64,000 nt of DNA from assembly GCA_051362555.1 (NCBI GenBank), contig CM120642.1, positions 11,532,001 to 11,596,000 of the forward strand, read 5' to 3'. The first letter of the stretch is position 1; each line of letters opens with the position of its first letter. The stretch comes from Lingula anatina (lineage: Eukaryota; Animalia; Brachiopoda). A program made the translations under genes and the position numbers. Below are positions 37,154-62,102 of the stretch, in pieces. The notes beneath the pieces were generated by a model, which was not told the origin of the DNA, made no database searches, and saw nothing but the letters and a program-made list of their open reading frames with translations.

Positions 37154-40100
37154 ATGAGCTCATCAAGCATTAACATGCTTGTGCTCTTTCTTCTCTGGAC
37201 TGCAGCGTTCGGACAACAGAACCACACAACAAAGAGTCAGTCTAAAGAAACAGCGAAAACAACTGTCAGCATCCGTCAGTCTACACAATGCGTCAGAGGG
37301 AAACTATGTAACACGACGGTTTCAACTGCCCAGGAGTCACCGACCTATACCAGTAACGAGAAAGAAGCGGGCAATGAAGTGTTACCGACTAAACAAGGCG
37401 TGAAAAGTGATATACCGTCGTTCTTTAAGAACACAATCCCAACTATCTATCCCCCTTTGCAGAACGTCCGCCGGAACGTCGCCAAGAGATCGGTGACTAC
37501 GCAGACTACGCCCTCTCCATTGAATACAACTGATCGTCCATGGGGCATTACAGGCAACCGTACAATGAACAATCACATTTGCGCAGCAGTGTCGAATGAA
37601 ATGTCTGTCAGTGTGCAGGCGCTGTGTCATTGTGACGAGCTCTGCAATCTGTTTCGAGATTGCTGCGAACCGCTCCATTCCTGTGGGAATAACTCAGTAC
37701 CCCAAGGACAAGCAATACAGAAGTCTGCTCTGAAAGATAACATAGATTGCGTATTGCAGTCTACAACCACCCTGAACGGAATTGAAAGTGGGTATTTTTG
37801 GATGATAACTTCTTGCCCAAGTAATTGGTTGAGCAGCACCGAGCGTAACTTTTGTGAAAATGCTACCGAAACCAATGACATTGACAGTTTGCTGCCAGTC
37901 TCAGATCCAGACACAAAACTGACTTATCAAAACAAATTCTGTGCAACCTGCCACGGTTCGACGAACCACCTCAAGTGGACGCCTTTATTCACCTGCCGAT
38001 TAACTTGGGGAGACAGCACGGAGCTCTATCTTAACTCATCTAGCATTGATGATATATTGATCCACATCAAGTCAGATCCGGGCTGCATGATTTTCTATGT
38101 TCCACCACCGTCAGTTCCCGGAAGGCAATGTGTTCCGAACGGAGAAAGTCCAGTTACGTCAATTTTGTGGAACACCGGTAGATTATGTAAACGAGACGCT
38201 GATCCAATACACAAAGAGATGTGTTCTGCAGGGCCACTCTCGCTAGTCTACATAAAGAGAGGGTCGCACGGAGCTGAACTGTATGGCAGGAACATATATT
38301 GTTGGCTTTGTCTCTACAGTTTAGGTTCACCACCAATTGTACAAGCGTGCTCTACTCCACGTAAGATGTACATCTTTTTTATATGTTTTTTCTTTTGTTC
38401 TAAAAGAGGACAGATCTTTTTAACTGTGAATTAATAATTAGTTACACGCGGTTTCCTAGAATATATTCATTTCATTGGTATCAGGTAAGAGATCCTGTGC
38501 GACTGGGTAGTCAGGTGCTCCGGTTTCTGTGGTCAATGGCTTACACCCCATTTCCATAGAATTTTAGATCGATCTATCCCTGTGGGGAGTTTCACTAGAT
38601 TACTGTCAGCTTGGCCGGCTTAAGCGTCTGTCCCGCCTACTAAAAGCTGTAAGGGGGTTATTAACTATGGTGCCCGCACGGCTGACTGCAATTTAGCGTG
38701 AACCCCCAGGGAGTTAGGTCGATCTAAAACTTAATCTTTAGATCGATCTAAATCTCTGGGAAAGCACCCTTAAATAATATTTAATATTTTTAGAAGTTTT
38801 TTAGATGTCTATTAATATATGTCTTTGGTGTTACACAAAATACCATTCTAACCATTCCAACGTGGTTCTGTTTTCGTGCAAAAGATCAACCAAATTGAGT
38901 CTTAGTCTAGTTCTAAAGAAAAAGAAAATAAAAAAAATCGCCATGGTTGTAGACCTGGCCTCCGTGCCGCTGTGAAATTTTGATCTTGTATTTTTGTACA
39001 ACTAATTTAATGTATATGTTGCAAATACTGAATAGTAATAAATGCTGCAAATATTACATAATAAATCATATTAAACCATACTAAATCCAATCTTTGTTAA
39101 CAATCAATAAGTCTTGCTTACTGCACAATTCGATACTATGAAATAGAACTTTTCATCGATTAAGTACTAATAATAGATTATTTAAAATTATTTTTCATTC
39201 ATGTAGCCTCAGGAAAGAGGACGTTTGCTCCAGTAGGGTTCACAATGATGCTTGATCCTTCAAAGATATACGCCAAACAATGCCTACCAAAAACCATGGT
39301 AAGTCTTGTAACAGGAACAGATATTCCCGTTAGTAATACAAATACGTGGTAAACTAAAATTATTCTGGCGATTTCCATTTTGATGACCATAGTCAATCAC
39401 GCAATGGGATGAAATTCCGACTTTTGTTCAGTAAATTTCGAAAGAAAGTACCAACTATAACATGAAATAATATAAAATATATTTCCGGAGTGGACAACTA
39501 TCTCTCAAATAATTTGAACATTTTTCTGATTTCAAACAAAACAGTGACAACCTAACACAGATTTAAAACTTTAATATGCCAAAATAATAGGATTTTTGAA
39601 ATCGCTTCTATGTGAAAATAGATTTCATTGCAAATCCATTCCATTCCAGTCGGCATGCAGTACGGAAAATGAACGCTGTCTCTCCCCGGCACTAGCCCTT
39701 CTCAACGTAGGTTACCAATTGCAAATGGCGCTAACTCACAGTGGTTCTTTGAACATTTCTGGAGACATGCTTGGTGTTTGCAGGGTGTTCCGTAACTACT
39801 TGAGTTATTTTTTTCATACATCCAGTAACATTGCTTGGATGTTTAAAAATGAATGGGTACTGCAACCGCGCGGAGCATGTTCCAAACCCACTGTGGATCA
39901 GATGAAGATGGCGCCATATTCCAATGTTGTGGTGATTATGCACCGCATTCTTGTACTGCAAAAACAGATCAGCTGGTATTATGATGGGGTCAGAATGTTG
40001 GAAACATTGAAGAATCGCATCAACGATATCCTGCACGCGAAGAAAGCAACCGTGCCATACAATGGTGTCGAGTTCAATGTTAGAGTAATCCTGGATGACA

Positions 40101-40273
40101 CAGTGCCTTGTGGTAGTAATGAGGGATCAAGCAAGGTTGAGCCACCCCTACCAGATAAGACCGCTGGAAATAGTGGAAATCCCCGCAGCTATACCCGTTG
40201 GATGGCATTCACAGTCATTTGGTTCACGTGGCCGGTTTTCGTCCACATTATCATATGTGAGCTTATAAGCTAA
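37154..40273 (+). CDS. Uncharacterised secreted or GPI-anchored Cys-rich protein with a somatomedin-B-like domain, about 640 aa, 3 coding exons
   Basis: Exons 37154 (or 37175)-38360, 39207-39298, 39650-40273 (phases 1 and 0, canonical sites). Signal peptide MLVLFLLWTAAFG, S/T-rich region, basic site RRNVAKR, SMB-like CHCDELCNLFRDCC, WMITSCP, LPVSD...TYQNKFCATCHG, hydrophobic C-terminus after AGNSG. Confidence 0.8.
38544..38769. mobile_element. About 200-bp Tourist/PIF-Harbinger-like MITE, family A
   Basis: TTA on both flanks; imperfect TIRs (CCATTTCCATAGA / TCTCTGGGAAAG); repeated TAGATCGATCTA; inverted copies at 54614-54828 and 63386-63582. Confidence 0.75.
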
Positions 40274-41055: not shown

Positions 41056-44000
41056 TTATGTAACAAACAGACCGCCGCATATCACGAATACCATGAATTC
41101 CACCCGAACTCTCACACGAATCGCATTCGCTTTTTTGGCGGGCACTGTAGAGCCCGCAGTAGTAGTATTAAAAGCCGTTTGCGTGTAGCTATTGTCATTT
41201 TCTTGGGACACCAACGTACTGGCCACATCTGTCCCCTCGCCAGAATCCGACACACATTCCCAGGAAAAATCTAACGCACACAGGGCAGTGGACCCAGCTG
41301 GAGAATTTCTTGCGCATTCACTTTTTGTTGCAAACTCTTTAATCTCTTTCGTCACTGGATTTCTCTTGGTACAGCATGAGCATGGATCACATCTGGAGAT
41401 AAAATTATGAACGGGGACTATGTAAACAGAAACGAAAAAAAAAACAAGGCAGCAAAGCTGTCAAATGTACAGACAAAAAACAGAAAAAAAAGATGCAAAA
41501 TAGGTCATTTTGTTAATTTTGATGCAATAATATATGCTTATAATAGCACAGTCAGTCAACACTGATTTTTAATCATGCACAACAGCTAACATGGTCAATA
41601 ACAGGAGCAGATCCAGAGATATTTTCTGACAGTATTCCAAAGTATCTTTGTTGATCCATCCTCCATTTTGATGGTCTTCCAACAGAAACCCGTAAATATA
41701 AACTTTAAAATCTGACTGTCTTCCAGGAGACCCAGAAAATGGTCTCAATCCACCCCTTCAATAAGATTACAGTTTCAGGACCATGAGAGTTAAAGTTCAC
41801 ATGATGAAAGTCCCAATATATGAAAAATGATGACAGTGCATAAAATAATATTATAGCCTGTTTAAAGACATAAATACCAATACAACTGCTTATGTGGAAA
41901 TACTGAAAATGTGCAGAGCCTCAGGTGGATGGGAGTTAAAAATCACATCTAAAAAATGCCAGTGTTGGAGAAAAAATTAAAAAGAAAACAACAAAAATAT
42001 AATTCCAATGAAGCTGCTATTCACTGCTTCCTTATTATGGACACTATGTTATCTAGCAGAGAGCTTAACCTTTGGGAGTTTACAGGGAAATATCAACAAG
42101 TGTGCTTTATGAAATTTCATTTAATGGCCGCTTAATTAGGCAAATGAGTTTATAGCACTGAAATTAGCCTAGTGAATACCCAAGGGGAATTTACAGACTG
42201 ACCACACAAATTTGTCTATCAAAGGTCTTCAGGCCCATAAGTCACACCTTAAGAAAAGCAGAAAACAATAATGTACAAAATAAAACAGGAGACTGCCAAT
42301 TCTGATGCAATAATACATTATGTTTAACTGCACAGTCAACATCAAATTTTAATTATGCACAACGTACAGGTAACACTGATGAAAGTAAAAGCATAAGGCT
42401 ACAGGCCCATCAGAGTTCAAGTTTACAATTAGAAAGTGCCAGAGTGAGAAAAATGAAAATTTCACAAAAAATTCATAAATTTAATAAAAATGATAATCCA
42501 ATAGAGCTGGTTCTCTAATATGAACTGTATGTCAATCCTAAGAATCATTTTTGTAAGAATATTTAAAAAAATAGAAAGTAACACTTTACTTTACATAATA
42601 TTAATGGTGGCAGAGCACAAAGTAGGTTTTTTGTCAATTTTGATGCAACATTACATAATGATTAACTAATTAAATACCACCAATTTTAAAATATCTACTA
42701 TTAAAAACATGGACATTAAGAAAATTTGATTACCACTGGGCTTCATGCCCAAGGGAGCTCTAAGTCCCACATTGAAAATTGCAACATGTGAAAGATAAAA
42801 ATTTTCACAAAAAACCTGTATTACTTCCAAATAATTAACTTATGAGACAATTTTTCAACTGAAGCTGTATTTCAGTCATATGTTTCTTTCCTGTAAGTGT
42901 GAGAAGAGCAAGTGACATGGTTTTCCTTTCACCGCCACTAGGGAGGCAGTGCCCAGAATAGGGTTTTGTTCAATTTTTATGCAATATTACACAATGCTTA
43001 ACAGCATAATAACCATAAATTTTTTAATAATAAAATAAAAGTATCATGGATATTCAGAAAATGTGACTAGCCTATAGAGTTCAGAGTCATACTTTGAAAA
43101 TCCCAAAATGTAAACAAGAGAAAACTGTATTGAAAGAGTTTATTTCCATTTTCAACACCTTTTTTACATAAAGCAAAATATGATCAATCAAAAATATGTT
43201 GTCAAAGCAAAAATATCAATAGAACAATTATAAATGTCCAACTTGCTCCATTCTGAAATTCTGAACATAGTGAATGGTTGAATCTGACAAACTGTAAAGA
43301 TATGTTTTTTTTTCCATTTTTGACACTTATTAAACAATACACAATATCAGGTTTACCATCATTTTTTTATAATCAACTAACAATGTTGTTAAGATGCAGA
43401 AAATGTCAAAAGAACAACTTAACATATCTAATTAGTTCAAAAATGAGACTGTTAGCATGACTGAGAATTAAATTTGAGGAAAAAAACAATTATATACAAA
43501 AAAAGGCATAACTTCACCAAAACTTTACTGATCAAGCTTATTTTCAAAACTTAATCTGTATTTCAGTAACACTGATCACTACTGTGAATTTCAAGACAAT
43601 TGGCCAATCGATTTTCCTTAAAATGTGTTATAGGTGTTGCAAATATGCTGAAAAAAAGTGAAAAAACAGCAAAACTTTTATAAAAATGCTCTGATCATGC
43701 CAATGTTTGAACTTGACTTGCGTATTATAGATATTCATCAGTTCTGTAAGTTTCAAGCCAAAAAGTAAAGCGGTTTTTCAAATATTGTGTTATCGGTGTT
43801 GCATAAATGCTGAAAAAAGTGAAAAAAACTGCATAACTTCAATATAAATGGCCTGATCATGCTGATTTTCGAACTTGACCTGCGTATTAAGAATATTTAT
43901 CAGTTCTGTAAGTTTCAAGCCAAAAGGTAAAACGGTTTTTCAAATATTGTGTTATTGGTGTTGCATAAATGTTGAAAAAAGTGAAAAAACTGCATTACTT

Positions 44001-47000
44001 CCATATTAAAGGCCCCATCATGCTGATATTCGAACTTGACCTGTGTATTATGAATATTCATCAGTTCTGTAAGTTTCAAGCCAAAAGGTAAAACGGTTTT
44101 CCACTTATTGTGTTATCGGTGCTACATAAATGCTGAAAAAAGTGAAAAAACAGCATAAATTCCCCAAAAATGGCCCGATCATGCTGATTTTCGAACTTGA
44201 CCTGCTTATTATGAATATTCATCAGTTCTGTAAGTTTCAAGCCAAAAGAAAAAACGGTTTTCCACTTATCGTGTTATCGGTAAAAGGCCACGGCGACGGC
44301 GACGACGGCAACGACAGCGACGACGGCAACGACGGCGACGGCGACGACAGACGCAGGTGATGGCTATATGTACAGACACATCTGTGTCTGTACATAAAAA
44401 CAAGCAAATAGAACAGGTGAGAATATTGACGCACTGCACGTATGGAAAGTTGGAAAGATTAAAAATGAAGGGACAACAGCAAGCAAACTGAAAGCAAAGT
44501 GGCGATTTTTTTAAACCTTTGGTCATTATATGCAAAAATACGGTGTACGTCATGGTGAAAAACCCAAACAAATGAAATATACAGATGACAAACGGGACAT
44601 AAAACAGTAATGAGAGAAGAAAATTAATAAAATTTTAAATAAATAAACTGAAAAAAATTTATTCAAGAAAAGAAGCTGAAGCGATCAATATTCACTTCAC
44701 AGTGTATGTCAATCTCCCGTTGCCTTACATATAATGGTTTTTATGATTTAAAGAAAAAGAAAACAAATTCAGGAATAACTTAAATTTCTATTTCATGTGT
44801 TTCTCATTACAAGCAGAAAAAAATCTAATACGATGTGAAAAAAGTAACATACAACAATGTTTTTTAATCAAACATCGATAAATTGCAATGAATTCACTAA
44901 CTAATCGATTTGCAAGAGAAATATCTAAACACTCTCATGCATGTGTATATTTTTGGCCACCAGGAATTAAATAATTTTTTAAGTTTATCTATGTTTGGAA
45001 TGTACTTACTGGTTTGTCAAATGATTGCAATAATTTCCGTCTGGGCAGCTGGAGTTCCCTGGGTTACACGGTGCCTCCCGCTAAAATTACGATACAGGGA
45101 ATCAATATGGTCCGTTCCACTAGTGTTAAATTTGTTTTACAAAAATTACCATTTTTTTTACGAAATCAGTGATACATTGGCTGGCATTATGTTCTCTCAA
45201 TCTAATATTAAAAGTAAAGAATAATGGCGCATTACACATGGCTATCTCAGGTACAAATGAAATAAAAGTCAAAATTATACAAAGCGCAACATAAGAGAAA
45301 AAATCAGACAAAAGTACGACTGTATGACTTTTTGATACAGACGTTTTTGATGCGCTTTAATGATCATAATAAATTAGACACTATTTGTCTAAAATTGAAC
45401 AGGTATAAAATGATGTGAGTATATAAATTTACATCACTACTTCTACATTACTGTGAAAATATACCTTCAGTCTTATTCGGCTCTTCTGATAGTCTTCCCA
45501 CCCGGACACATGCAAGGAATCTCTCACTACCATATACGTAAAGCAAAAGTAAATGAAAGCCAACCTAAGACACATGCTGTACGGAGAATAAAAACAGAAA
45601 AAGACAAAGATACGGGAAACATTAACCAAAAAAGTTCCATTGTGAGTGGGTCTATATAAGTAGGTCTGTATACGTGACGTATACAGTCAATTAATATAAA
45701 ATAAACATAAAATTGGAAAATTAACATAAAATTAGAACTATAACAGCCAATAAACATAAATTTGGAACAAAGCTACAAAATATTGCTAGATACAACATAG
45801 ATCATGCACATGATGCATCTACTTTACAATACATGCAGATAACACATCAGACAGGAAACCTCAACTGCTGCAGGGTAGTTACACATTTACCCCACCCACC
45901 TCTCGAGCAACTTAATACCTCAAATATCAAACACATAGCACGGGAGTATTTAGCGTTAAAAAGGGTTTTGTAGATGGTTGGAATAATACCTCTTTAACCG
46001 CATGACAATATATCATGTTGAAAAAGACGTCTTGCTGAACGAGTTCAGCTGGCCAAATGACTGGGGTTATTTTTTTTTTCTAAAATCGCCACTCGGATAT
46101 CTGAATAAAGTAAGGAATCAGGACCGCCCTTTGCAGAGCATACATATAAAGCATTTTGGACAGACGGCTGTTTCAACATGCTACCCAGTACAGTCACAAT
46201 TTGATAACAGTCAAATATCATACACGTACCTTTTGTGACCACAGTGTTATTAAATTCTATTCTACTCTCATCAACTTGTTCAGACAAGGAGCGCCCTTTG
46301 GATGACTGTGAGTCCACAGGATGACTAAATACCTAAAATGCAAACACATTTGTCATTTAAAAATTTGGCCTTGGCTTTAATTCTTTGTAAAATTATACTG
46401 AATATCCCTAACAGCTTATACTGCACGATTTTCCTAAGATCGATTTTTGGCATATATATATACAGACTTGACATTTAATATGGAATATTTCAGTTTCGAA
46501 GGTATACCTAGGTAAAAATACGTTCTTTTTTAAAAAAAACTCCGATTTCATATAAGATTTGTGAATGTAAAAGTATGCAGTCATGTGTGTCACTACCAAT
46601 TAACTGACTTTCATGCATGTTGCGCTGCTACACTGTGTAATTTGAAGTGATTTAATTGGATAGTGTTCCTTTGGGCTGATCAAAGCTTGGCTTAGGCAAA
46701 GCTTGGTTCTGTCAAAAAAGTATCCATATTTCAGCAACTACTGCATAGAAAAATTTGAAATTTTGCATGCAAGCGGCCAATTTTGCAGTGCGTAAGATGA
46801 GTCAAGAAGTGCATTACAAATTTGTTAATCTAAGGCAGAATGGCGCGAAAAAGACAGACATCACCAGACAGATCATAGCGCCAAACGGAACGGTCCCCAC
46901 AGTTTTATAGAGTAATGCCCAGACTGATGTACCTACACAGAGGTGACCCCCAATGTATCAACATTTTACCTACAGGGTACAAGACCCACTGTCTTTCGGG

Positions 47001-48121
47001 ATACGCTGCTGCAACTAAACAAAAAACACTTAGCCCGTTCAGAACGAGGGATAAATTGCCACTAAAATGCGTTTTTCAAAGCCCTTAGCGAACACCAAAC
47101 TGGTTTTAGCAGGTAAGAACACCTAATGACCTCCGAGGTACCCACTGTATACAGCAAAACATCGTCGTCTGTTTCTCTAATGAATTGGGGGTCATGAACG
47201 ATTCTGGGTAGAACACTGAAACTGCGTGGCTTTCTTTATTGAGGTCAGATTTCACCTGTAACGCCCAATTAGTCAAAACAGAGTTTACAGATATCCAGAA
47301 GAGGCCTACGACGAAGCATATGCCGGGTCTTAAATGACAAGGGTGATTGACAGCGTCAGTATTTGGAGTAGATTCCACATTGGTGCCAAAACACCAATGG
47401 TAGTCATCGACGAAAACCTGAACCAGATCAAATAAAGGGATGATCTCGGAACCACTTGACTATCATTTGATAGGGGGCACCTTAGGAACAATTCTAGGTT
47501 GTACGATGAGGTTGCAGGTTCACACAGAGCACTTTTAATAGCAGATAACTTACAGAACCAAGGGGATGAGCAGCTACCCTGGTCATCAAAATCGCCACAT
47601 TTGAACCACATAGACAATATTTCGGTAGACCATTACTCACCAATCAACTGCCTACATGTCCTACAACAAAACTGGACCAGATTGGACAATTTCAGACCGA
47701 TGCCTAGAATGCTATTCCAGATTGAACTCTAAAAACCTACCCTCAAGAAATGCCTTGCCGCTTGAGAGCGCTGGCAACAGCCACGAAGAGGCCAGGCGTA
47801 ACAACGACCATTACTGTGACTAGCAACTGACATGAGGGTCTTTTGTGGAGCGTATTACCCTTTTACGGACGATAATTTGGAAAATATGGAGATCCAAAAT
47901 ATCTCTTTTAATGGGAGTCGTATGACATAGAATAGGCAATGTGTTTTTGTTTGTTTCTCTGGCGAATTCCATTAATGAACTGATGTCACAATGACATCAA
48001 ATAGATAATTTAAAGTTATTAAAACACGATTTAAATCCTTATTTTCATTTATCAGTCCGCAAAATAGGAAAAAACTGATACAAAATTATTTCGAAAAAAA
48101 TATTCCATATTAAATGTCAAG

Positions 48122-48200
<79 letters not shown>

Positions 48201-48642
48201 GGCCGCAGCCTGAGCAAAATGCCAGGGGGGACAGTAAGCGGACACGAGGGGGCACGAGGGGATGTCCCCCTCCCACGGTGTGGAAAATTTTTAAAAACTG
48301 TATGTATAATACTGGATTCTGGTGCATTTTAACTGTTATTTATTGCTCAATCAGAAGTCAGAAATTGTGGGTTCATTTTGCCTGGGGGATAGCTCCCTAA
48401 GGGAGGGTGAGCTTTGCGGTATGAACTGAGTTGGCTAAAAACAGTACACCTTTCTAAACAGATTGTTGAATGATTGTCTAGTGGCCATGAGTGCATTTTC
48501 TCACAGAATTGAAAGCAACTTTGCAATTATTTTTTTTAACCTTTGCTATTATTATTTTTTTTGCACCTCAAATCCCGGGGGGGGGGGGGGGCAGCTGCCC
48601 CCCCCCTGCCCCCCCTCCCCCCCCCCCCCGGAGGCTACGGCC

Positions 48643-48710
<68 letters not shown>

Positions 48711-49112
48711 CAAATATTTCTTTAAAAAAATTAAAAATCCAGGGGATTTTTCTGACCCTGGCCTGGGCATAGGTCTGTGCAGTAGAAATAATATACAAAC
48801 ATTTGTCTAACATCTGCGTTGGAAATAGATTTAAACAAAACTAATTGAATTCTAGAGGAGGTGACGACTTTGCAAAAAGATAGCAAGACACTTTATTGTC
48901 GAACATGTTTTTTTTTTGCTGAAACGGGTCATAGCCCTGTTTGCTAATAGGGGTGAGGTCGATATCATTCTACTTTGTAGGCGAAACCTCAGACACCTGT
49001 CGCATACTCCAAACCCTTGATTATTTAATACATGTCAAAGTTATACTTAAAGAAAGCAACTTACCAACAACAAAGAACAAATTGCGACTAGCATTAAAAG
49101 TTGACTCGCCAT
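41056..49112 (-). CDS. Uncharacterised TNFR-like single Cys-rich-domain protein with a GPI-type tail, paralogue A (206 aa, 5 exons)
   Basis: Exons 49112-49065, 46332-46230, 45526-45465, 45080-45010, 41392-41056 (intron phases 0,1,0,2; all GT-AG). MASQLLMLVAICSLLLVFS-HPVDSQ...SRIRLKR-EAPCNPGNSSCPDGNYCNHLTNQCDPCSCCTKRNPVTKEIKEFATKSECARNSPAGSTALCALDFSWEC...S/T stalk...KANAIRVRVRVEFMVFVICGGLFVT*. The gene model is well supported; the TNFR call is inference from Cys spacing. Confidence 0.78.
41443..44397 (-). mobile_element. HINE-like element (second family) in the last intron of paralogue A, with a 162-bp satellite array
   Basis: Palindrome TATGTACAGACACA-tc-TGTGTCTGTACATA at 44367-44396, (GACGGC/GAC)n microsatellite at 44290-44350, about five 162-bp units (about 43480-44281), matching subTIR ATGTACAGACA at 41465-41475 and terminal hairpin GGCAGC-aaa-GCTGTC at 41448-41462. 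Confidence 0.8.
41602..41758. mobile_element. Diverged MITE family X copy nested in the HINE
   Basis: Colinear with 29485-29648; AATAA on both flanks. Confidence 0.7.
46631..47830 (+). pseudogene. Degenerate Tc1/mariner transposase relic
   Basis: Broken frames give IVNLRQNGAKKTDITRQI (HTH-like), VCFSNE (FSDE-like), GAKTPMVVIDENLNQIK*RDDL, and GSHRA...LPWSSKSPHLNHIDNI (Tc1 WPSxSPDLNPIEN motif). Boundaries approximate. Confidence 0.8.
48126..48704. repeat. (TA)n microsatellite split by a 448-bp TIR element (48198-48645)
   Basis: TA arrays at 48126-48197 and 48646-48704; element ends CAGGGCCGCAGCC / GGCTACGGCCCTG resemble family Y ends; G/C homopolymer palindrome at about 48575-48630. Confidence 0.85.
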
Positions 49113-49184
49113 TTTCTCTGCCTTGTGTAAAGTGGTAAATAGGACATTCAATGACGCTGAAAAAACCCCCACTTGAGAGTAGGC

Positions 49185-49205
49185 TATTTATAGTGGGGAT
49201 TTTCC
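49185..49205 (-). promoter_or_regulatory. TATA box with an adjacent consensus NF-kB site upstream of paralogue A
   Basis: TATAAATA (minus) at 49192-49185; GGGGATTTTCC at 49195-49205 matches GGGRNNYYCC; about 75 bp upstream of the ATG at 49112; (TG)n tract at 49216-49249. Confidence 0.65.
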
Positions 49206-51287
49206 ATTGTTTTTAGTGTGTGTGTGAGTGTGTGTGTGTGTGTGTGTGTCGTTCATGAGACAACAATTCTGCAACTGGCTAGCGCGTATAGTTTGATCTA
49301 TACTTATGCATTACTAATTCCCGATCAAACTTGATATTGATTTCAGACAATCTGACACTACATTTAGCCTTGGCCGAATAAGACTGTGTATGTTAGAATG
49401 TTTGAGCGTGTTCTAAAACAATTACATACGCTGCTTATATGTTCATGTTCATACGTTGCAAAAAGAGTGATATCACGCTCAAAGTAATGCGAAGAATCGA
49501 TTCTATATACAATACTCAGGGCACTTATACGGATCTCTTTACGTTAGCATTCTTAGTCAAGCAGTGACGCGTTGTTGGGTTATGCAACAACTTGTTTCGG
49601 CTGCTCTATTTGTACTGCCTGTACATTTATAAGAGCTTTGCACCAAGTTGTATCTATTTTTTCACCTTTACTTCACATTTTAATTGACATACAAGCTTAA
49701 TAATGATTTAGATTTTTCGTGCTTTTAGTATTCACTGAGAAAAATATATAATGTTGCAACATGCGAATGGAAAATATTTTGTAATCACGCAAAGACAATG
49801 GAAAAGAAAACAAGTAAATGCGTGATCAGTACGGAGAAATTGAGTATAAATATTTGTGAAGTTGTATGAAGCGAGAGTCGGTGAATAACCATTCGAAAGC
49901 TCCAAACTGCTGTCGTCATTTCTCACTATAACAATAAACGTACAAGATGCTTTATCGATAAATTCTATTAACATAGTTATTCGGTGCATAACCTCAAATC
50001 ACCTTGGTTAATTTTAATTTGAAACTGCATTTTGTAGTGCAAAAGTTAAATACTGTTTGTTGCTTCTTGGATTCATAATAGTTAGTTTCTTGTCATATGT
50101 ATTTTATAATAATAATGGTCCTAACAGTGTTTATTCTGCTACCTAAAGTTGGATTGTACATGTACTACTGCTATAAGAAAAGTGATAAAAACAACTAATA
50201 CATTATAAGATTACCAACATAAAAATTAATAAAGAAAATCAGTGGTTCAAATATTATATCATTCAAATTCTCTAATTAGTTTCAAAGCAACAGAAAATTT
50301 TGAGTGTCTTATGGATAAAAGCATTTGCAGAAATAACTATTTTGGTACAAGTATTCAGCGTGCCTTCGAGTTTAAGTATGTTTACTTATTTTCGGTAAGT
50401 AAATTGTTGTGCATTTCTCCAACAATACATCATTTGTTTTAAAAGTCCAATATGTTTTACAAAGACTGTAATTACTGTTTAATAAATAAATAAACATTAA
50501 TTACAAAGAAGCTTGTTTTTATTTTTCTGTCAATAATACAATAGCCACCAGTTGTAATGGGTTAAAAAATGCTAACTGCTCCAACGTAAATTGACAACCA
50601 CATAGGTAATCTTATACATTACAGGTCCCAGAGATAAGCTTGCTTCTTAGAAACAAATGTGCGCATCCTAATCACTTCTTAAAAGCGAAGCCCTGCATGT
50701 GTGCGTACACGTGTCTGTCCAAATTGCTGGGCAAAATGTTATTTCCTTGACAATGCCGTCCATGGTTTCACAGTAATAATGGCGTATGCCAATATACAGG
50801 ATGGTCATCGATATTCTAACAATCAAGATTGGCATCAATGTTTAAACTACGATCATTTTACAAACCAACTGGACTTGTCTCTGACTTAGGCTTTTTCCGA
50901 AAAGTAAATTAAAACATGCTATATATGAAATTTAGTAAATTTAGCTTTGCTTAAAAAAAATAGGCGAGATTTTAGATTTTAGATTTTCCAACAAAAAATT
51001 CTCGCCAAAAAGTGCAAACGACACTGACTTTAGCTAGGCTTAATCTTGGATATTGGTGGAACCCCTTACCAAAGTGCACTTTGTTGATTTGAAGGAATTC
51101 CACCAATGTTTAAAAAACTCTAATTTAAGTCAGTGCTGTCAACATATTATCTTATCAATTATCACTTATGACAGAGTGAAACACACACTGCCAGGATACC
51201 AGAATGAAAACAAATCCTACACCGCTTAATTTTGATAATAATACGAGAAAGTTACTATTTCCTGGAGCCCACCTAACAATGCTAAAA

Positions 51288-51447
51288 CAGGCCCGTAGCC
51301 AGCTATTTGAAAGGGGGGGGGTTCTTTTTCTGAAAAAGTGGACCTTTTACCATATAATCCCCATGTACCTAGGTCAAATTTTACCCAGAGTGGACCTTTT
51401 TCCGGCCAAAAGGGGGGTTCTTTCGAACCCCCCTGGCTACGGGCCTG
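51288..51447. mobile_element. MITE family Y copy
   Basis: Same TIRs as 31491; TAAAA 5-bp TSD. Confidence 0.85.
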
Positions 51448-51738
51448 TAAAATCTAATAAGCTTCAAATGCATTTCATGGCATTTATAAAAGGTGTAAAC
51501 AATAAAAGCAAGTTTGGATAGATACGAGAAAGCTACTAGTTCCTGAGACCCACCAAAAAATAAATAAAACCTAATTAGCTTTAAATGCACTTCACTGCAT
51601 ATATAAAAGGTGTTACAGAAATACAAACATAAGCTTGAAATGCATACATTGTAATACAGCTATCAGCTTTTCTTTCTTAGTGGACATCTTAACTTCAAGT
51701 ATAAAAATTGATGTTACATACATTTATACCAAACTTAA

Positions 51739-52075
51739 AGCAATAATAACTCTTCGTTTCGGCCAAAAAATGAATTTTCCTGGAGTAAACAACAATTTTC
51801 CCATACTTACCAATGGTTAATGAATCCATTTTTACATTCAAAGTTAGTCCCTGGTTTTTTTCTAAAAAGTTTGGTTTTTTGTTAAAATCTCTTAAGAGAT
51901 TTTAACAGAGTATAGACATCAATGGAGGTCACGTGGTCTAAAGACAAGTTCAAATATCAGAATAAAAGCTATAACTGCTGTTTTTCTGGTAAAACAGAAT
52001 ATATTGTATTTCTATGAGTTATTCACAAGGTTTTTATTGTGAAATATAGATCTCATACGAAGAGTTATTATCCCT
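51739..52075. mobile_element. About 335-bp Kolobok-like MITE, copy 2
   Basis: Colinear with 14538-14871; TTAA on both flanks. Confidence 0.85.
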
Positions 52076-52262
52076 TTAATTCTTATAAGACATACCAAGT
52101 ACTGTAAATATGTATTTGAAATATATAAAAAAAGGATTATAAATGTAGCCAATGGCAAGTGAAGAACTAGTCTACATATTCTAAATGCAAAAGCCTTGTG
52201 GATATAACTGAAAGAAATGCTATTAACTAAACCCCACAACCACCATTAAATGTTCTGATTAC

Positions 52263-55200
52263 TCAAAAAACGTTGTAACAGATTACAACAAAGACCAATC
52301 TTAAAAGTGCATTGACGGGTGTGTATTTCAGGTTAGAAGAGGACGATTTTGGTGGCTTTTTATCTCTTCGAATCTGATCCCTATCCGTCACTTTGGACCG
52401 AGTGGTTTCCTTGAAACCCGTATTGTATGGCTTAGTGGTATCATTCTGTACTCTGGTGTCACAGACCCAGGAGAAATCTTGTGAACAGGCGAAATCAGCA
52501 CGCGTTTGGGAGTTACTTGTACATTCCGTGAGGGGAGTTAGTTTCCTTGTTTTGGTTTTGTCATGGCGGCTCACAACATTACAACAAGAACATCTGAGGC
52601 ACCTGAAATGGAATAATTATTATTCCAGTGATTTTAATCACTTATAATTAAAATTAAGTTAAAACATTTTCTTGTGAGAACAAGACAGACTGCTAGCACA
52701 GGAGTTTTTTAACTGTTGTACTGATATTGACCTCAAATTGAAAATTAAGGCTTACCTATTTTTCTTTTCAGAAAAGTATTCATGGGCCCCACATTTCTGA
52801 AACAAAAAATATGTGAATGTGCATTATAGTTCATCACAGCAGAAACAACATGTTGTGGTTTTATATTCTTTTGTACATTACAACAAGCATTGAACTGAGT
52901 CACAGTCAGTATGAGGAAATTTTCTCTCTTTATATGAAACTTCTGTAAAGATTTTTTGATAAGGTCAATGTATAGTTTATGGACTAATCAAGCAGAAATC
53001 ATTTAAACATTATTAATATATGTATAAAATACCTTTTCTCAAAAATATGTTAGCACACAAAAAGCAGAATAAGGGAAAAAAACCAAACAATCTTTATTTT
53101 AGTGTGCATTCACAATGAACCAACAATAAATAAAATAAATGAATGAATGAATGAATGAATAAACAAATTTATAACTAAATAAAGTAGGAAAGAAAGAATA
53201 AAGAAAAAAGGAGGTCCAACACTACCCATGCATGGAACAATTCTTACATAACCATTGCCTATAATCATGTTCACCAGATAATTCTGAACTTGTCACGATT
53301 CCTGAATCCCACATGCAAATACAATATTGGCTTTCGCCCAACTCCACTTTTATTTTTTTGAGGCAAGTTAACACAGTTAATTATAAATAAAAAAAATATC
53401 TTTACACTCACATGCAGAAGATAATATCAAACTACTTTTTTACTATCTAAATCTTACCATCAACAGGCCTTCAGCTTCTGGTAATGTATCCCATTTCCTT
53501 TGTGATAGAGTTAAAAGTTATCATTTTTTAAACGCAAAACAGATTTGATTTTTTTCTTTCAGTTAACCTTTAAGTTATTGAAATACTTTTTTTGACAATC
53601 ATTTTATCTTACCTTATTAATGCCATCTGCCAAAAGCTCATTCTTAGGGGCATTAGAATCTCTGTTCCAATCTGTGTTCAAATGAACAATAATATAAGGA
53701 AAATGCATGCAGTTAGCAATAAAAGACCGCATTCACAACGAGTTGAGCCATGGCTCTACAAAGTCACGAACTAAATATGGCAGACATACATGAAAGGAAA
53801 ACCACCTAATCTTTTAATAGTCTTTAATAGGGGGTACAGTCATTAAATCTCGGCTCCATTGGGACGACACATGGAGAGGCGGGTGAAAGGCGGAAGACTA
53901 TTAAAAGATTAGGCAGTTTTCCTTTCATGTGTTTCCGCCATATTTAGTTCGTGACTTTGTAGAGCCATGGCTCAACTCATTGTGAATGCGGTCAAAGTAA
54001 TATAAATAATACAACATGTGATGTATAATAAAACCTACAATAGGGAACAAGCAAAATAAATCGATTGGAATACAAAATTAATAAATACAAAATAAAAAAG
54101 TTAACAGTACACATACTTGTAACAGGCCCGTAGCCAGCAATTTCAAAAGGAGGGTTCTTTTTCTGAAAAAGTGGACCTTTTCCCATAAAAACTTCATGTA
54201 CCTAGATCAAATTTTACCCAGAGTGGACCTTTTCCCAGCAAAAGGGGCGGTTCTTTATAACCCCCCGAACCCCCCCTGGCTACGGGCCTGTGTAATTATG
54301 TCCTGGTATGATGAGGTAATTTTTGTGGTGGGTAAGGGAAGGGGTAACATCAACAGGGAAATACAAAACATTGTACAAAACAACAGCATGTCTAACTGCA
54401 CATATATCTTACCTGGGTACTTCATGTACATGTAACTAAGCACAGAGTTCTGGTTTCTAGTTGCGTTCCTAGGGAGATAATGGCCATGTCTATGCAGGTG
54501 GTTGGGGCTACTGGGATTTCCATTTACCTACAAAGATATTGATAGAAGCTACTATATCCACTGCACTAAATATGAATTTTAATTTAGCAACATGATGTTG
54601 ACTTGTACTGTAACACCCCATTTCCATAGATTAGATCGACCTACTTTAGATCGACCTAACTCCCTGGGGGTTCACGCTAAATAGCTGTCAGCCGGGCGGA
54701 CACGAAAGTTAATTACCCCCTTACAGCTTGTAGTAGGCGGGACGGACATTTAAGTTGGCTTATCTGAAAGTAATCTAGTGAGACTCCCCGCGGGGATAGA
54801 TTGATCTAAAATCTATGGAAATAGAGCCTTAGGTAGCATTCACAACGAGTTGAGCCAGGCTTTACAAATCCTGTGGACTAAATATGGCGGACGTACATGA
54901 AAGAAAAACCGCCTAATCTTTTAATAGTCTCTCCGCCTCTCACACGCCTCCCATGTGTCGTCCCAATGGAGCCAAGATTTAATGACTGTCCCCCCGCAGG
55001 GACGATGTTGGGGAGGCGTGTGAGAGGCGGAGAGACTATTAAAAGATTAGGTGGTTTTTCTTTCATGTACGTCCGCCATATTTAGTCCCCATGATTTGTA
55101 AAATCTGGCTCAACTCGTTGTGAATGCGCTCTTAGTTATTGATTGTCTAAAGGCACAAAGTCACAGTAACTATCACAGTAGCATTATAAAATCATATGAA

Positions 55201-56500
55201 TACACACATAAGACCAAAATGACACTGTGATGAATATTTCAAAAGAACTCAATGGTGTTAAAATGACATGAGTTATAACCACTTTTTTGCATTTAAGGGG
55301 ATCAATAGGTTGGATTTTTTTTCCATACCCGCTTAGATAATGAGGATATAAATATTGTCATGCCATGAGATAATTCTATTGCATCAAAACTGGAGATAGA
55401 ATTTCTAACACTAGCTGATATATAATAGCAGCTTTTTTTTTTTTTTTTTTTTTTTTGAGGGGGGGGGGGGGAGAACTAGTATCAATTTCAAACAGATCCC
55501 CCTCACTTGTACAGCTATCAATACCTTTTTAACAGCTTTTTAATAAGTGCTTACAGAAAATAACTATCCAATGTCAAGAATTAATTTTCTTGTGTTTTAT
55601 AAGTGCTGAGCCAACACAATGTCTTTGTTAAACGAACAAAGATATTCATTATAGAGGCTCATTTCTCCTTTCAAAAATATCAAAAATGCTAGCACCAGTC
55701 CACACCCTTGTCGTCAACTATGCAGAAATGAATGGGTGGTGAAAAGGGAACAAGGGGGTGTTTTGTGCTTTAAAAACGTATATTCTCATGGCAATAAGAT
55801 TAAGGTAAGTTATTTCCCGTAGAAGAAATGGGGCAAGCTGCTTTGCCTTTATATAATTATCGTATCGAATTCCCTGCCATGTGTGCCTACACCACGTCTA
55901 ATACGTGTAATAATTTTCAAATCTGAGTACACATTGCTCACTACAGGAGTCCTCATCAAACAAATCCAATTAATTCAGTAAGACTATACACGTGCCACTT
56001 TTAATGGTTTTCAAATCAAAATTCTTTGTGTACACTTTGAATCTGAAAAAAATCTCTTAACTGTTGAATTATTTAAGTTGGGAATGTATACTGCGCTGTC
56101 ATATCTTTTCAGTTTCAGTGTAACACAGTGCCATTGATTGCTATATTTAGAAAACGGTGATTTTATAACGTTAACCATTGGGTGGGGCTTTTTTTCCTTA
56201 CAGTCCCTCTTCATTAATAATTACTAATTCATACTTTTTCATTGTAGATCTACAATCAATGTGCCTGTATTATTTATACAATATAGGCCTACATTAACAA
56301 AAAATGACCCGGTCCTACTGGTGTAGATAACCATATAATTATCTGTCTTTTCTAAAGAGAAGCAAATCACTGGAAAATCTCCCTTGTCTTTTAAACGAAC
56401 TGAAACGAAACGAAATTTAAACGAGCTTTATCTAAGTACTACATACATATAGTCTTACCCACTGTAAAATGATGGCTAAGGAAATTACAGACACTATCAT
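52263..56500 (-). CDS. Uncharacterised TNFR-like single Cys-rich-domain protein with a GPI-type tail, paralogue B (185 aa, 5 exons)
   Basis: Exons 56500-56459, 54527-54413, 53477-53458 (20-nt microexon), 52796-52756, 52602-52263; phases 0,1,0,2 as in paralogue A. MIVSVISLAIILQWVNG-NPSSPNHLH...LMKCGAHEYFSEKKNRCLRCSCCNVVSRHDKTKTRKLTPLTECTSNSQTRADFACSQDFSWVC...KSSSSNLKYTPVNALLRLVFVVICYNVF*. Confidence 0.75.
53725..53993. mobile_element. Fold-back palindromic MITE, family B, copy 1
   Basis: About 98-bp nearly perfect inverted arms starting GACCGCATTCACAAC; AAA 3-bp flanks; homologous to 54832-55131. Confidence 0.8.
54123..54290. mobile_element. MITE family Y copy
   Basis: Same TIRs; TGTAA 5-bp TSD. 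Confidence 0.85.
54614..54828. mobile_element. MITE family A copy
   Basis: Reverse-complement match to 38544-38769; TAA/TTA flanks. Confidence 0.75.
54832..55131. mobile_element. Fold-back palindromic MITE, family B, copy 2
   Basis: About 130-bp inverted arms around a roughly 35-nt loop; TTA on both flanks; produces mirror-image spurious ORFs at 54878-55066 and 54897-55085. Confidence 0.85.
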
Positions 56501-56815: not shown

Positions 56816-59800
56816 ATGATGGAACGATTGGTGTGGCTCCTGTTGTTTTTAAGTGTCATATTCAGCCAGGCTGTCAACACTGTGGACGTCGATCCAAACG
56901 GTTATGTAGTATACTGTCCTTGTATGGGTACGTATTAGTACTGGGAAAATATGCTAGAATGATCGCCACAGGCAGATGCATGTACGCTGTTCTCCCACCA
57001 TGACATCAATGTCGGTTGAAATTGAAATCTCGTATCTGTTACTAGTGTCATGTCGTTAACAGTTCTGAAATAATGACCATCGTCATTATTAGGAAAATGG
57101 CCTTAGTAATTGTGTCTCTTCAATCTTCAGTTTATTGTATTTCTGCTTTGCTTTGCAGTGCATGTTCATATACAAATTATGGGGTTACCTAATGAGCCAC
57201 GTTTACTTAACCAGTGGGCTATACATGTATACAGTTCATACATGTATATATGGCAAATTGTCTTTCTCTCTCCCTCTCTCTCTCTCTCTGTTTGTAATGA
57301 GGAAGGGGGGTGATATCATTTACATCATATACTTAAAAATGTAGTTATAATGCTCTTAAAGGGGGACTGCTCATTCAGATTTCAATTTATAGGTCGCTTT
57401 GGGAATCAGGCAGATCACTTTCTCGGATCTCTGTCATTTGCTCATGGCTTGAACAGAACCCTGGTGCTTCCCCCTTGGGTAGAGTACAGGACAGGAGAAA
57501 GGAATTCTGTAAGTTTTAATATATCCTAGCTGTGATTTAATTGTCTGATTATTCAGTTTAAACACACTCCCATTCCTAGCCGTTATCATCTTACACAATG
57601 CTTGGATGAATAAAATGTTTTATTCATCTAAGCACAATGCATGTATTGTCAGACTCATTCAGAAGTAATTGTGTTAAAAATATCAAAAATATCCCCCAAC
57701 TTATTGTCAGTTATATTATGCAGTTGCCGATCTTTGTAATGCTCTCCTGAAATTCAATTAAATTGCAAGCTCAGCGATGCGGGATTCATCTAGAAACAAA
57801 CAAATGAGGGTCCTCTGCCTGTTCTGGAGGTTTTTAAATGAATACCCCGTATTTCAATATTTTTGTTTCCTCAGGTCCAAGTGCCCTTTGACACATATTT
57901 CCAAGTAGCTCCTCTACAAGACTACCACCGTGTTATGACAATGGAGAAGTTTATGAAGGAACTGGCACCTGTAATTTGGCCACCAGGAAAAAGAACAGGT
58001 GACTTAAGCTTCTATCACATTAGTGTCCTTTTTTCATGGTAGTATCTATTGGGGATGAGCACAAGTTTAGCTTTCCAGGTGTGAATAAACCAATGGTATA
58101 AAGGTTTAAGACATTGTCCAACTTTTTATTTTACATCTGTGTTTATTTTGGTGTCGGACATTGCAATTTAAAAAAGAAAAGCCACCTGTAAATCATCGAA
58201 TAAAAACCACATCTATGATCTTATCACATTCTTTTATTATACTCAACTTTCATGTTGTTTAAAATTAGACCTCTTTCTTTCAGCCTTCTGCTACATGGCC
58301 AGGCCAGGTTCTACCTCGGAGGGTTGCAATGCTAAAGATGGCAATCCTTTTGGACCTTTCTGGAATACTTTCAATGTCGACTTTGATTCATCAGAGTTCT
58401 ATGGTCCACTGTATTATGATTCACATCGCACGTCAACTGCCAAAGCATGGCATAAAAAGTACGCATTTGTTAATCTTGAGATTTATAACAGTTAAAACCA
58501 CTTTTTCAAGAACCTCTTTCTTAGCACACTGGTGTTTTTGGTCACTATAGAATTTAATTGAGGTGATTCTGAAATGCACCTGTTGTGTGTACATGTGTGT
58601 ACATTTACATGCATTTAAATGACAATGTATATGTATTACTGTGGATTTTTTTTTTTTTTTTTTAAACATCTTTATTCTCAAGAGGGTTACATATTGATAC
58701 AGTATAAATAAAGGTGGCAATTCGCCTAGGCATTATATGCTCACCTTTGAAATTTAATAATAATAATAATAATAATAATAATATTCAAGAAAAAGACGGT
58801 GACGAGGACATGAATGGCATTAGAGGGGAGTGAGGGACAGGGCATGGGGGAAAGGTAATTATGGGGGGGGCAATGGGCCATCAGGAGAGAGTGGTAGGCG
58901 CCAGAACAGAAATGGAAGAAGATTCAGACATTTTTGATTAAGAAATCTGACACTATTTCGAAAATCTTGTCGTTTTGTCCAGATGTTAGTGTTTTATGGC
59001 CATGTAGGAAGAGGGATATCTTATCTAGTTGGGTTCTGAAATATGCATAAGTTACACCAAGTATATCTTCAACAGATTCGTAGAGATCACGATATTTCCT
59101 CTGTTTCAGTGGGCATTGAAAGAAAAAATGTCGGATAGTTTCGGGTTTCCCACATAAACAGTTGGGAGAAGCCATAGCTGTCCAGTTGTGGTCATATAGT
59201 TGGGCTCTAAATAACAAATCGACTCGGGCCTTATTTAGGATTTTTTCATTTTGTCTCGGAAGCTTCAGATGGGTAGTGGACATTGTTGCTGGGAAGGTTT
59301 CATTTCTAAGGTTATACTTAAGGGAGGATGCAGAAGGAAGATTTTTTTGAGTGGTGTTTAGTTCATCCCAGCTTGTCATCAAAAAGTGTTCGGGACCTTT
59401 GTATGTGAATTTAGAGGGAATTATGTAGTCTCGTTTAGATGTTGTCCGTAGAGGTAGCATGTATTTATTTCTAAACGGAATGAAATAGGTAGAGACATAG
59501 GAAGGTGCTAGTTGATTGTGGATATTGAACATGATTTTTTTCGCGTGGTTTCTTCGACGTTCCTCTAGTGAAACCCAGTTCAGCTGTTTCAGTACTTTGC
59601 AGCGATTTGAGCCAGGAAGGGCCCCCAGTATATTAAGGCCAGCTTGATACTGGAGGGAGGATAGCTTTGATAGGTTATGTAGAGACGCGGTGCTATAGAG
59701 AACATCGCAATAATCAAGCAAAGGAGAAATGTACGCATTGTAAAGTATGTTAAGATGCTTAGATCGTAAAGTTTTAGAAAGCGATTTTAAAGGATTTAGT

Positions 59801-61762: not shown

Positions 61763-62102
61763 GTGAGTTGGGGTATACTGAGTGAGTTCTGTCTGGCTGT
61801 GTTCACAGCTGGACTAATTCAGACCAGAAATATCTAATTGCTTTATATGCATTTATTTGTAAGACGTGCTAGGATGCTGAAACAAACTTGCTTGTTTGCT
61901 TATTTTGGGAGTGGTGGCATTGTTTATGTCATTTTGTTGTCAGAATGAATTAGTAGTAAGCACATTTTGATCAGTATGCTTTTACAGTTATCCTTACAAG
62001 CTGATTCCTTTTTCCTTTTCCTTTAAAGAAAGCTCTTCAGAATACTTCAAAGCACTTTTCCTAAGTATTGATTTGTTATTTCATGGAATTCCATAGATAT
62101 AA

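What the first reader, a model, noticed from the sequence alone, without database searches (positions are those of the whole stretch)
41056..56500. Tandem pair of uncharacterised GPI-type, single-CRD TNF-receptor-like genes (candidate decoy receptors)
Seen: two minus-strand 5-exon genes with identical intron phases (0,1,0,2), each giving signal peptide, pro-region, Cys-rich domain, S/T stalk and a short hydrophobic C-terminus with no cytoplasmic tail. They share C-x4-Y-x7-C-x2-C-S-C-C-x18/19-C-x11-C-x2-DFSW-x-C but are otherwise very divergent, so the duplication is old and the Cys core is constrained. Known (from memory): C-x12-C-x2-C is the first module of the short single-CRD TNFRs BCMA, TACI and Fn14; the extra Cys pair in A recalls Drosophila Grindelwald; GPI-anchored decoy TNFRs exist in mammals (DcR1). 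Inference: a lineage-specific family of ligand-sink receptors, with a second half (CC...DFSWxC) I do not recognise from any family.
Basis: partly seen in the sequence, partly recalled or inferred. Interest (0 to 1): 0.85.

Follow-up and report, generated by a model that had tools for sequence, protein, structure and literature searches.

The report
Tailless TNF-receptor-like gene pair in Lingula
Two neighbouring, transcribed genes of the brachiopod Lingula encode small cysteine-rich proteins with no cytoplasmic tail, which are likely lipid-anchored on the cell surface and likely bind a TNF-family signal without passing it on, and whose versions differ unusually between individuals.

Summary
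Two minus-strand five-exon genes (U 56500-52263, 198 aa; D 49112-41056, 206 aa) have GT-AG introns in phases 0,1,0,2, share the stated cysteine pattern and end in a short hydrophobic tail. They match unnamed NCBI models of Lingula anatina. RNA reads cover both; U's last junction is spliced in 4 of 4 runs. No relative outside Lingula was found, by searches too weak to find the paralog. TNFR kinship is supported only weakly and only for the first half of the domain: Pfam TNFR_c6 E 0.032, Atlas TACI/BCMA 0.81, and 16 of 25 listed Foldseek rows, all non-significant. The second half matches nothing. The GPI anchor is plausible but untested; TNF binding could not be tested. New here: the versions differ strongly, in D almost only in the cysteine domain (15 of 69 residues against 0 of 65 in stalk and tail), though pN/pS is not significantly above 1. 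Best reading: TNFR-derived, non-signalling surface ligand binders (0.45). 'Decoy' is a hypothesis.

The parts
56459..56500 (-). U exon 1, signal peptide (aa 1-14), phase 0
   Evidence: identical N-terminus in P0004
54413..54527 (-). U exon 2, pro-region, phase 1
   Evidence: matches P0003/P0004
53613..53671 (-). U exon 3, pro-region, phase 0
52756..52796 (-). U exon 4, first Cys and hairpin of the Cys domain, phase 2
   Evidence: junction to exon 5 in 11, 1, 41 and 20 reads of runs X1, X4, X7, X9
52263..52602 (-). U exon 5: rest of Cys domain, stalk, candidate omega site S172-S174, hydrophobic tail, stop
49065..49112 (-). D exon 1, signal peptide (aa 1-16), phase 0
   Evidence: tblastn of P0001; almost no RNA depth here in 4 runs
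46230..46332 (-). D exon 2, pro-region, phase 1
   Evidence: low depth in X6
45465..45526 (-). D exon 3, pro-region, ends in R-L-K of the furin-type site RLKR (aa 69-72), phase 0
45010..45080 (-). D exon 4, Cys hairpin with extra Cys pair C76/C89, phase 2
41056..41392 (-). D exon 5: rest of Cys domain, S/T stalk, candidate omega site A183, hydrophobic tail, stop
   Evidence: minus-strand RNA depth about 14-16 in X1 and X6, under 1 in X5 and X8

Best explanation
U and D are a tandem pair of expressed Lingula genes whose products are likely GPI-anchored surface proteins that would hold a TNF-receptor-derived cysteine domain outside the cell, bind a TNF-family ligand there and, having no cytoplasmic part, buffer or present it rather than signal. 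Shown: gene structure, transcription, signal peptide, Cys pattern, short hydrophobic end followed by a stop. Inferred: the tail is swapped for GPI at S172-S174 (U) or near A183 (D); D's pro-region is removed by furin at RLKR; the first Cys pair (C74-C87 in U, C83-C96 in D) forms the TNFR-type beta-hairpin that contacts ligand in BCMA, TACI and Grindelwald. My proposal for the second half: C3-x2-C4 and the final C-x7-C are the remaining four CRD cysteines, with a 30-residue insertion tied by one extra disulfide.
For: Pfam TNFR_c6 is the only family hit of the D domain stretch: model positions 1-27 of 39, E 0.032. The Atlas feature search of the U-type domain ranks TACI-CRD2 and BCMA clusters first (0.81, 0.78, 0.77; 7 of the ten best hits with a family share a family or clan). 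In the U-type model the best-predicted part is a hairpin (strands 8-11 and 16-25, block pLDDT 63-73), and 16 of 25 listed Foldseek rows are TNF receptors, BCMA overlaying 17-18 residues at 0.4-0.7 A. Grindelwald, BCMA and RANK also appear for D. In Grindelwald the hairpin is the main ligand contact (PMC8024323, passages). Both tails have last-13 hydropathy of 2.1-2.5, reached (1.9 or more) by 24 of 643 open frames of the window, and share a VFV-x-I-C motif. No death-domain frame among 65 downstream frames. Lingula has a signalling p75-like TNFR that such decoys could act against (10.1101/2021.12.26.474206).
Against: No TNFR match passes a threshold: Pfam 15.1 bits against a cut-off of 29.4; Atlas under 0.9, a level shuffled proteins reach a third of the time; Foldseek E 2.4 or worse; VIA-align gave no Z of 2 or more in 48,161 chains or in the 29 Foldseek chains; a profile search of PDB sequences gave 0 hits at E 10. 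The Atlas feature search with the D domain found nothing usable. The D model's top Foldseek rows were knottins. Both models are of low confidence (pLDDT 39.5 and 52.5). The U-type proteins hit FAM221 rather than TNFR_c6 in Pfam (E 0.03-0.06). The second half matched no family. My crude GPI rule passed U but not D, P0001, P0002, P0003 or P0004, and P0003 lacks the tail. High variability of the domain sits poorly with binding one conserved self ligand.
Confidence: 0.45

Rival explanations
1. They are polymorphic surface recognition proteins (of microbes, parasites, gametes or other individuals) that reuse a TNFR-like hairpin but bind a non-TNF partner, their allelic variation kept by balancing selection.
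For: D against P0002: 15 of 69 residues differ in the Cys domain, 0 of 65 in stalk and tail (Fisher p 3e-5). RNA run X1 carries 6 of its 7 D substitutions in common with P0002, and 12 of its 21 U substitutions with P0004, so the versions recur in another animal. X1 differs from the window at 11 of 141 bases in D's domain and 3 of 195 (all silent) in its stalk and tail; the published heterozygosity is 1.6% (PMC4595640, passage). No listed change removes a cysteine.
Against: pN/pS is about 1.3 (U domain), 0.7 (D domain) and 2.4 (U stalk and tail), none significantly above 1. The read tables show only the best-supported rows (594 and 549 hidden). The animals may belong to cryptic species, and no neighbouring gene was laid as a control. 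P0001 and P0002 could be paralogs with a converted 3' end.
Confidence: 0.25
2. They are precursors of a released cysteine-rich peptide with a non-TNFR fold (knottin- or Dickkopf-like), freed by furin at the front and by shedding at the back.
For: RLKR precedes D's domain and is kept in P0001 and P0002. Knottins lead the Foldseek list for the D model (best E 0.79); P0002's stretch has a Dickkopf_N hit at E 0.74.
Against: U has no R-x-K/R-R site, lacks the extra Cys pair that drives the knottin likeness, and its model shows no knottin among 25 listed rows. A conserved stalk and hydrophobic tail suit a retained surface protein.
Confidence: 0.12
3. They are decaying remnants of a TNFR-like gene under relaxed selection, with little function.
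For: pN/pS near 1; one NCBI model has lost the tail (P0003); a non-canonical 1615-base skip removing half of U exon 5 is seen in two runs.
Against: Both frames are open, all shared cysteines are kept across two genes about 21% identical and in all versions seen, and D's stalk and tail show only silent changes in X1.
Confidence: 0.1
4. The tailless form is one isoform of a signalling receptor that gains a cytoplasmic part through a further exon.
For: A usable splice donor lies right after U's stop codon, and 12 and 5 reads in X7 and X9 join the end of exon 5 back to the exon 4 acceptor; 85 and 188 joints were not shown.
Against: The donor lies after the stop; the hydrophobic stretch is only 13-16 residues; 65 downstream frames hold no death or other signalling domain; 4 of 4 NCBI models end in exon 5; X6 coverage runs on past D's stop on the same strand.
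Confidence: 0.08

Closest known systems
Single-CRD TNF receptors BCMA, TACI (CRD2), BAFF-R, Fn14
   Same: C-x12-C-x2-C start with an aromatic residue in the hairpin; top Atlas feature hits; 17-18 residue hairpin overlay in Foldseek.
   Different: They are transmembrane signalling receptors with a short helical second module and an Asp-x-Leu type hairpin tip (PMC8024323). U has no such tip, D has only N-H-L, and both have a 40-residue second half with five cysteines and no tail.
Drosophila Grindelwald
   Same: One domain; hairpin with two disulfides (X2 module; PMC8024323), as D's extra Cys pair would give; weak Foldseek row (E 3.0).
   Different: Grnd has C-x3-C-x11-C-x3-C after the hairpin, the CXXCXXXC signature (10.1101/2024.07.27.603686), a TM helix and an intracellular region; U and D have C-x2-C-S-C-C and none of the rest.
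Mammalian GPI-anchored decoy receptors DcR1/TNFRSF10C and mouse Tnfrsf23 (recalled; no paper retrieved)
   Same: CRD, stalk, GPI-type end, no tail, tandem gene arrangement.
   Different: They have several canonical CRDs and a known ligand and lie beside their signalling paralogs; no signalling TNFR gene was seen in this window. An analogy, not orthology.
NCBI models LOC106161927, LOC106169412 (U-type) and LOC106161931, LOC106169427 (D-type) of Lingula anatina
   Same: The same genes or their alleles: 5 differences in 206 residues for D against P0001; U identical to P0003 over residues 18-175.
   Different: They are annotated only as uncharacterized proteins with no Pfam domain; no paper in the library names them.

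Membership tests
TNF receptor superfamily | CRD recognised by Pfam TNFR_c6 above its cut-off | tested here: not met
   Best 15.1 bits, E 0.032, cut-off 29.4, model positions 1-27 only. The model is reported to miss Grindelwald homologs too (10.1101/2024.07.27.603686).
TNF receptor superfamily | A1/X2 beta-hairpin fold with TNFR disulfide topology | tested here: inconclusive
   Hairpin predicted and overlaid on BCMA, but E 2.4 or worse and no VIA Z of 2 or more; knottins first for D.
TNF receptor superfamily | Second module (B1, B2 or C2) with canonical spacing | tested here: not met
   C-S-C-C-x18/19-C-x11-C-x7-C; no family hit for this half; pLDDT under 50.
TNF receptor superfamily | Binds a trimeric TNF-family ligand | not testable with these tools
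Signalling TNF receptors | Transmembrane helix and cytoplasmic death-domain or TRAF-binding tail | tested here: not met
   Stop follows a 13-16 residue hydrophobic stretch; no such domain in 65 downstream frames of 40 aa or more.
Grindelwald-like receptors | CXXCXXXC signature and TM segment | tested here: not met
   Cys spacing 2-1-0 after the hairpin; definition.
GPI-anchored proteins | Signal peptide, small-residue omega site, spacer, hydrophobic C-terminus without tail | tested here: inconclusive
   Signal-like N-termini and hydrophobic ends in both; omega candidates 23-26 residues from the end; my crude rule passed only U of six sequences; no trained predictor was available.
GPI-anchored proteins | Release from the membrane by PI-PLC | not testable with these tools
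   Bench test.
Inhibitor cystine knot peptides | Knottin fold and disulfide pattern | tested here: inconclusive
   Non-significant Foldseek rows for D only; none listed for the U-type model.

The most novel reading that the evidence does not exclude
U and D form a linked, highly polymorphic two-gene recognition locus in a brachiopod: GPI-anchored TNFR-derived proteins with a so far unclassified second cysteine module, inherited as deep haplotypes, acting as the first invertebrate decoy TNF receptors or as self/non-self markers.
Probability: 0.2. Interest if true: 0.65.

Novelty: new variant of a known kind. Interest (0 to 1): 0.33.

Why it matters
The role of invertebrate TNF receptors without death domains, and their ligands, are listed as open questions (PMC4979521), and a recent survey kept only candidates with a transmembrane segment (10.1101/2024.07.27.603686), so tailless forms would be missed. 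If these proteins bind a Lingula TNF, they would show that decoy control of TNF signalling arose outside vertebrates and would add a new CRD module. If the allelic variation is selected, they are a candidate recognition locus in a phylum where I know of none. As it stands they are two unnamed genes of one genus with weak fold evidence.

Tried and rejected
No whole genome was held, so further Lingula paralogs and the species' TNF ligands could not be sought. The RNA run search gave no RNA holder listed, only runs of the same species label. Homology: word-indexed searches returned 2 of 22, 1 of 1 and 3 of 222 candidates, all Lingula. phmmer over 1.84 billion representatives returned P0002 and a 993-aa repeat protein matching only the stalk (E 4.7e-4; rejected on inspection); it did not return the U-type paralog, so its blank is weak. 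PDB sequence searches gave only chance rows. Atlas structure look-alikes were all under the bar. The wide VIA search was run only for the U-type model; for D it was not obtained. No D splice junction was among the 15 joints shown of 203; repeats in intron 4 filled the table. A GT-AG-flanked stretch near 53,460-53,500 was considered as a U exon and dropped: it does not fit the phase and is absent from P0003 and P0004. Positive selection was tested and not shown. Earlier scan findings: none. Locus names in papers: 0 hits; none in the supplement of PMC13425148. No complex prediction was run.

Full report
Observation. I rebuilt both genes from window coordinates. U has exons 56500-56459, 54527-54413, 53671-53613, 52796-52756 and 52602-52263 (198 aa). 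D has 49112-49065, 46332-46230, 45526-45465, 45080-45010 and 41392-41056 (206 aa). All 8 introns are GT-AG and the phases are 0,1,0,2 in both. The two proteins share 48 identities in 224 columns; the local score of 108 exceeds all 1000 shuffles (maximum 62). The eight shared cysteines are spaced 12-2-1-0-19/18-11-7 and D has an extra pair.

Identity. The last exons found only Lingula anatina models: D-type XP_013394464 (P0001) and XP_013404338 (P0002), U-type XP_013394460 (P0004) and XP_023931722 (P0003). One U-type and one D-type model each lie on contigs of 58,631 and 488,360 bases, which I read as two haplotypes of the same pair. All are named uncharacterized. P0001 maps onto the same five D exons. 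P0003 has a different signal peptide and lacks the hydrophobic end; this may be an allele or a model error.

Expression. Reads of other animals were laid at 88-90% likeness. U's exon 4-5 junction appears in 4 of 4 runs (11, 1, 41 and 20 reads), and the stranded run X1 places the RNA on the minus strand. The other U junctions were not among the 15 joints shown of 100. For D, exon 5 has depth of about 14-16 in X1 and X6 and under 1 in X5 and X8; X6 also has low depth at exons 2-4 and beyond the stop; no D junction was among the 15 shown of 203. So 1 of 8 junctions is confirmed by reads.

Anchor and tail. Both proteins end in 13-16 hydrophobic residues with small-residue sites 23-26 from the end (S172-S174 in U, A183 in D). 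A last-13 hydropathy of 1.9 or more occurs in 24 of 643 open frames of the window, and my crude GPI rule passed 5 of 643; it passed U but failed D and the four NCBI models. A GPI anchor is therefore plausible, not shown. A Pfam scan of 65 minus-strand frames of 40 aa or more downstream of U and D found no death domain (one chance hit); a domain split over small exons would be missed. D has a furin-type RLKR before the domain; U has none.

Is the domain a TNFR CRD? The D stretch hits TNFR_c6 at E 0.032 over model positions 1-27, that is up to the fourth cysteine, far below the cut-off; the other three stretches do not. The Atlas ranks TACI and BCMA clusters first for the U-type domain (0.81, a lead only) and gives nothing usable for D. 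The U-type model (pLDDT 52.5) has its best-predicted part in the hairpin; 16 of 25 listed Foldseek rows are TNF receptors, none better than E 3.4, and VIA-align finds nothing at Z 2. The full-length D model (pLDDT 39.5) ranks knottins first and Grindelwald, BCMA and RANK lower, all non-significant. These lines share the same cysteine signal and are not independent. They support a TNFR-type first module weakly. The second half matches nothing. By spacing alone I propose that C-x2-C and the closing C-x7-C are the usual last four CRD cysteines (canonical spacing recalled), with a long insertion held by an extra disulfide. That is inference.

Distribution. No hit outside Lingula came. The exhaustive search with D did not even return the U-type protein, so distant relatives may exist.

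Variation. D differs from P0001 at 5 of 206 residues but from P0002 at 15 of 69 in the domain and 0 of 65 in stalk and tail (p 3e-5). U differs from P0004 at 20 of 198, spread over pro-region, domain and stalk. Run X1 resembles P0004 in U and P0002 in D, while the window resembles P0003 in U and P0001 in D; this suggests two deep haplotypes and a phase switch in the older assembly (inference). From the listed read differences, pN/pS is about 1.3 in U's domain, 2.4 in U's stalk and tail and 0.7 in D's domain, against only silent changes in D's stalk and tail; none exceeds 1 significantly. The rows shown are a subset and no control gene was laid. The finding is fast change between fixed cysteines, not proven positive selection.

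Mechanism. The best reading is a secreted-pathway protein, likely GPI-anchored, whose hairpin binds a TNF trimer as Grindelwald's does (PMC8024323) but cannot signal, so it buffers or presents ligand (0.45). Rivals are a polymorphic recognition protein with another partner (0.25), a released non-TNFR peptide (0.12), a decaying remnant (0.10) and an isoform of a signalling receptor (0.08).

Literature seen. 10.1101/2021.12.26.474206: parts 1-2 of 4. 10.1101/2024.07.27.603686: parts 1, 2 and 4 of 6 and passages; its closed supplements include brachiopod Grindelwald-like entries and could list these proteins. Passages only: 10.1101/2023.12.11.571055, PMC8024323, PMC4979521, PMC4595640. Supplement search only: PMC13425148. 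Searches listed no paper describing these genes or a GPI-anchored invertebrate TNFR; I saw only their listings. A 2018 survey of Lingula immune genes, which I recall, was not listed and was not read. DcR1 and mouse Tnfrsf23 are recalled (one search found nothing).

Verdict. A real, expressed, unnamed gene pair; a likely new variant of the single-CRD TNFR type, with membership not established. Interest 0.33.

Noticed in passing
window 52263-52796: In runs X7 (12 reads) and X9 (5 reads) the end of U exon 5 is joined back to the exon 4 acceptor; a donor-like site follows the stop codon. Back-splicing or a tandem copy of exons 4-5 in those animals.
   Followed up: partly
window 50904-52518: A 1615-base skip without splice-site ends at any of nine shifts, in X7 and X9 (13 reads each); it would remove the second half of U exon 5. 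Possibly a deletion allele.
   Followed up: partly
window 37019-40273 (+): A gene tail-to-tail with D: signal-like start, T/S-rich stretch, weak somatomedin B hit (E 0.03), cysteine-rich region and hydrophobic C-terminus; another unnamed surface protein.
   Followed up: partly
window 2500-34600 and 57300-61900: Neighbours by Pfam: a UCH deubiquitinase, ribosomal L21e, peptidase S28, an MIT-domain gene, a Solute_trans_a gene and an O-fucosyltransferase. I read them as USP12/46, RPL21, PRCP, spartin, TMEM184 and POFUT1. From memory, human USP12, RPL21 and SPART lie on 13q with TROY (TNFRSF19), and PRCP on 11q near RELT; a weak synteny lead, unchecked.
   Followed up: partly
window 58927-61422 (-): An 832-codon open frame with a reverse transcriptase domain (E 7e-32), a LINE-type element inside an intron of the O-fucosyltransferase gene.
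   Followed up: no
window 43624-44353: A 161-base tandem repeat (4.1 copies) next to a short-unit microsatellite in D's fourth intron, heavily covered by strand-biased RNA reads with a sharp edge at 44013 in 4 of 4 runs; likely a transcribed interspersed repeat.
   Followed up: no
window 53720-55130: Several copies of an inverted-repeat element in U's introns draw most of the RNA reads and many opposite-strand joints; MITE-like by appearance.
   Followed up: no
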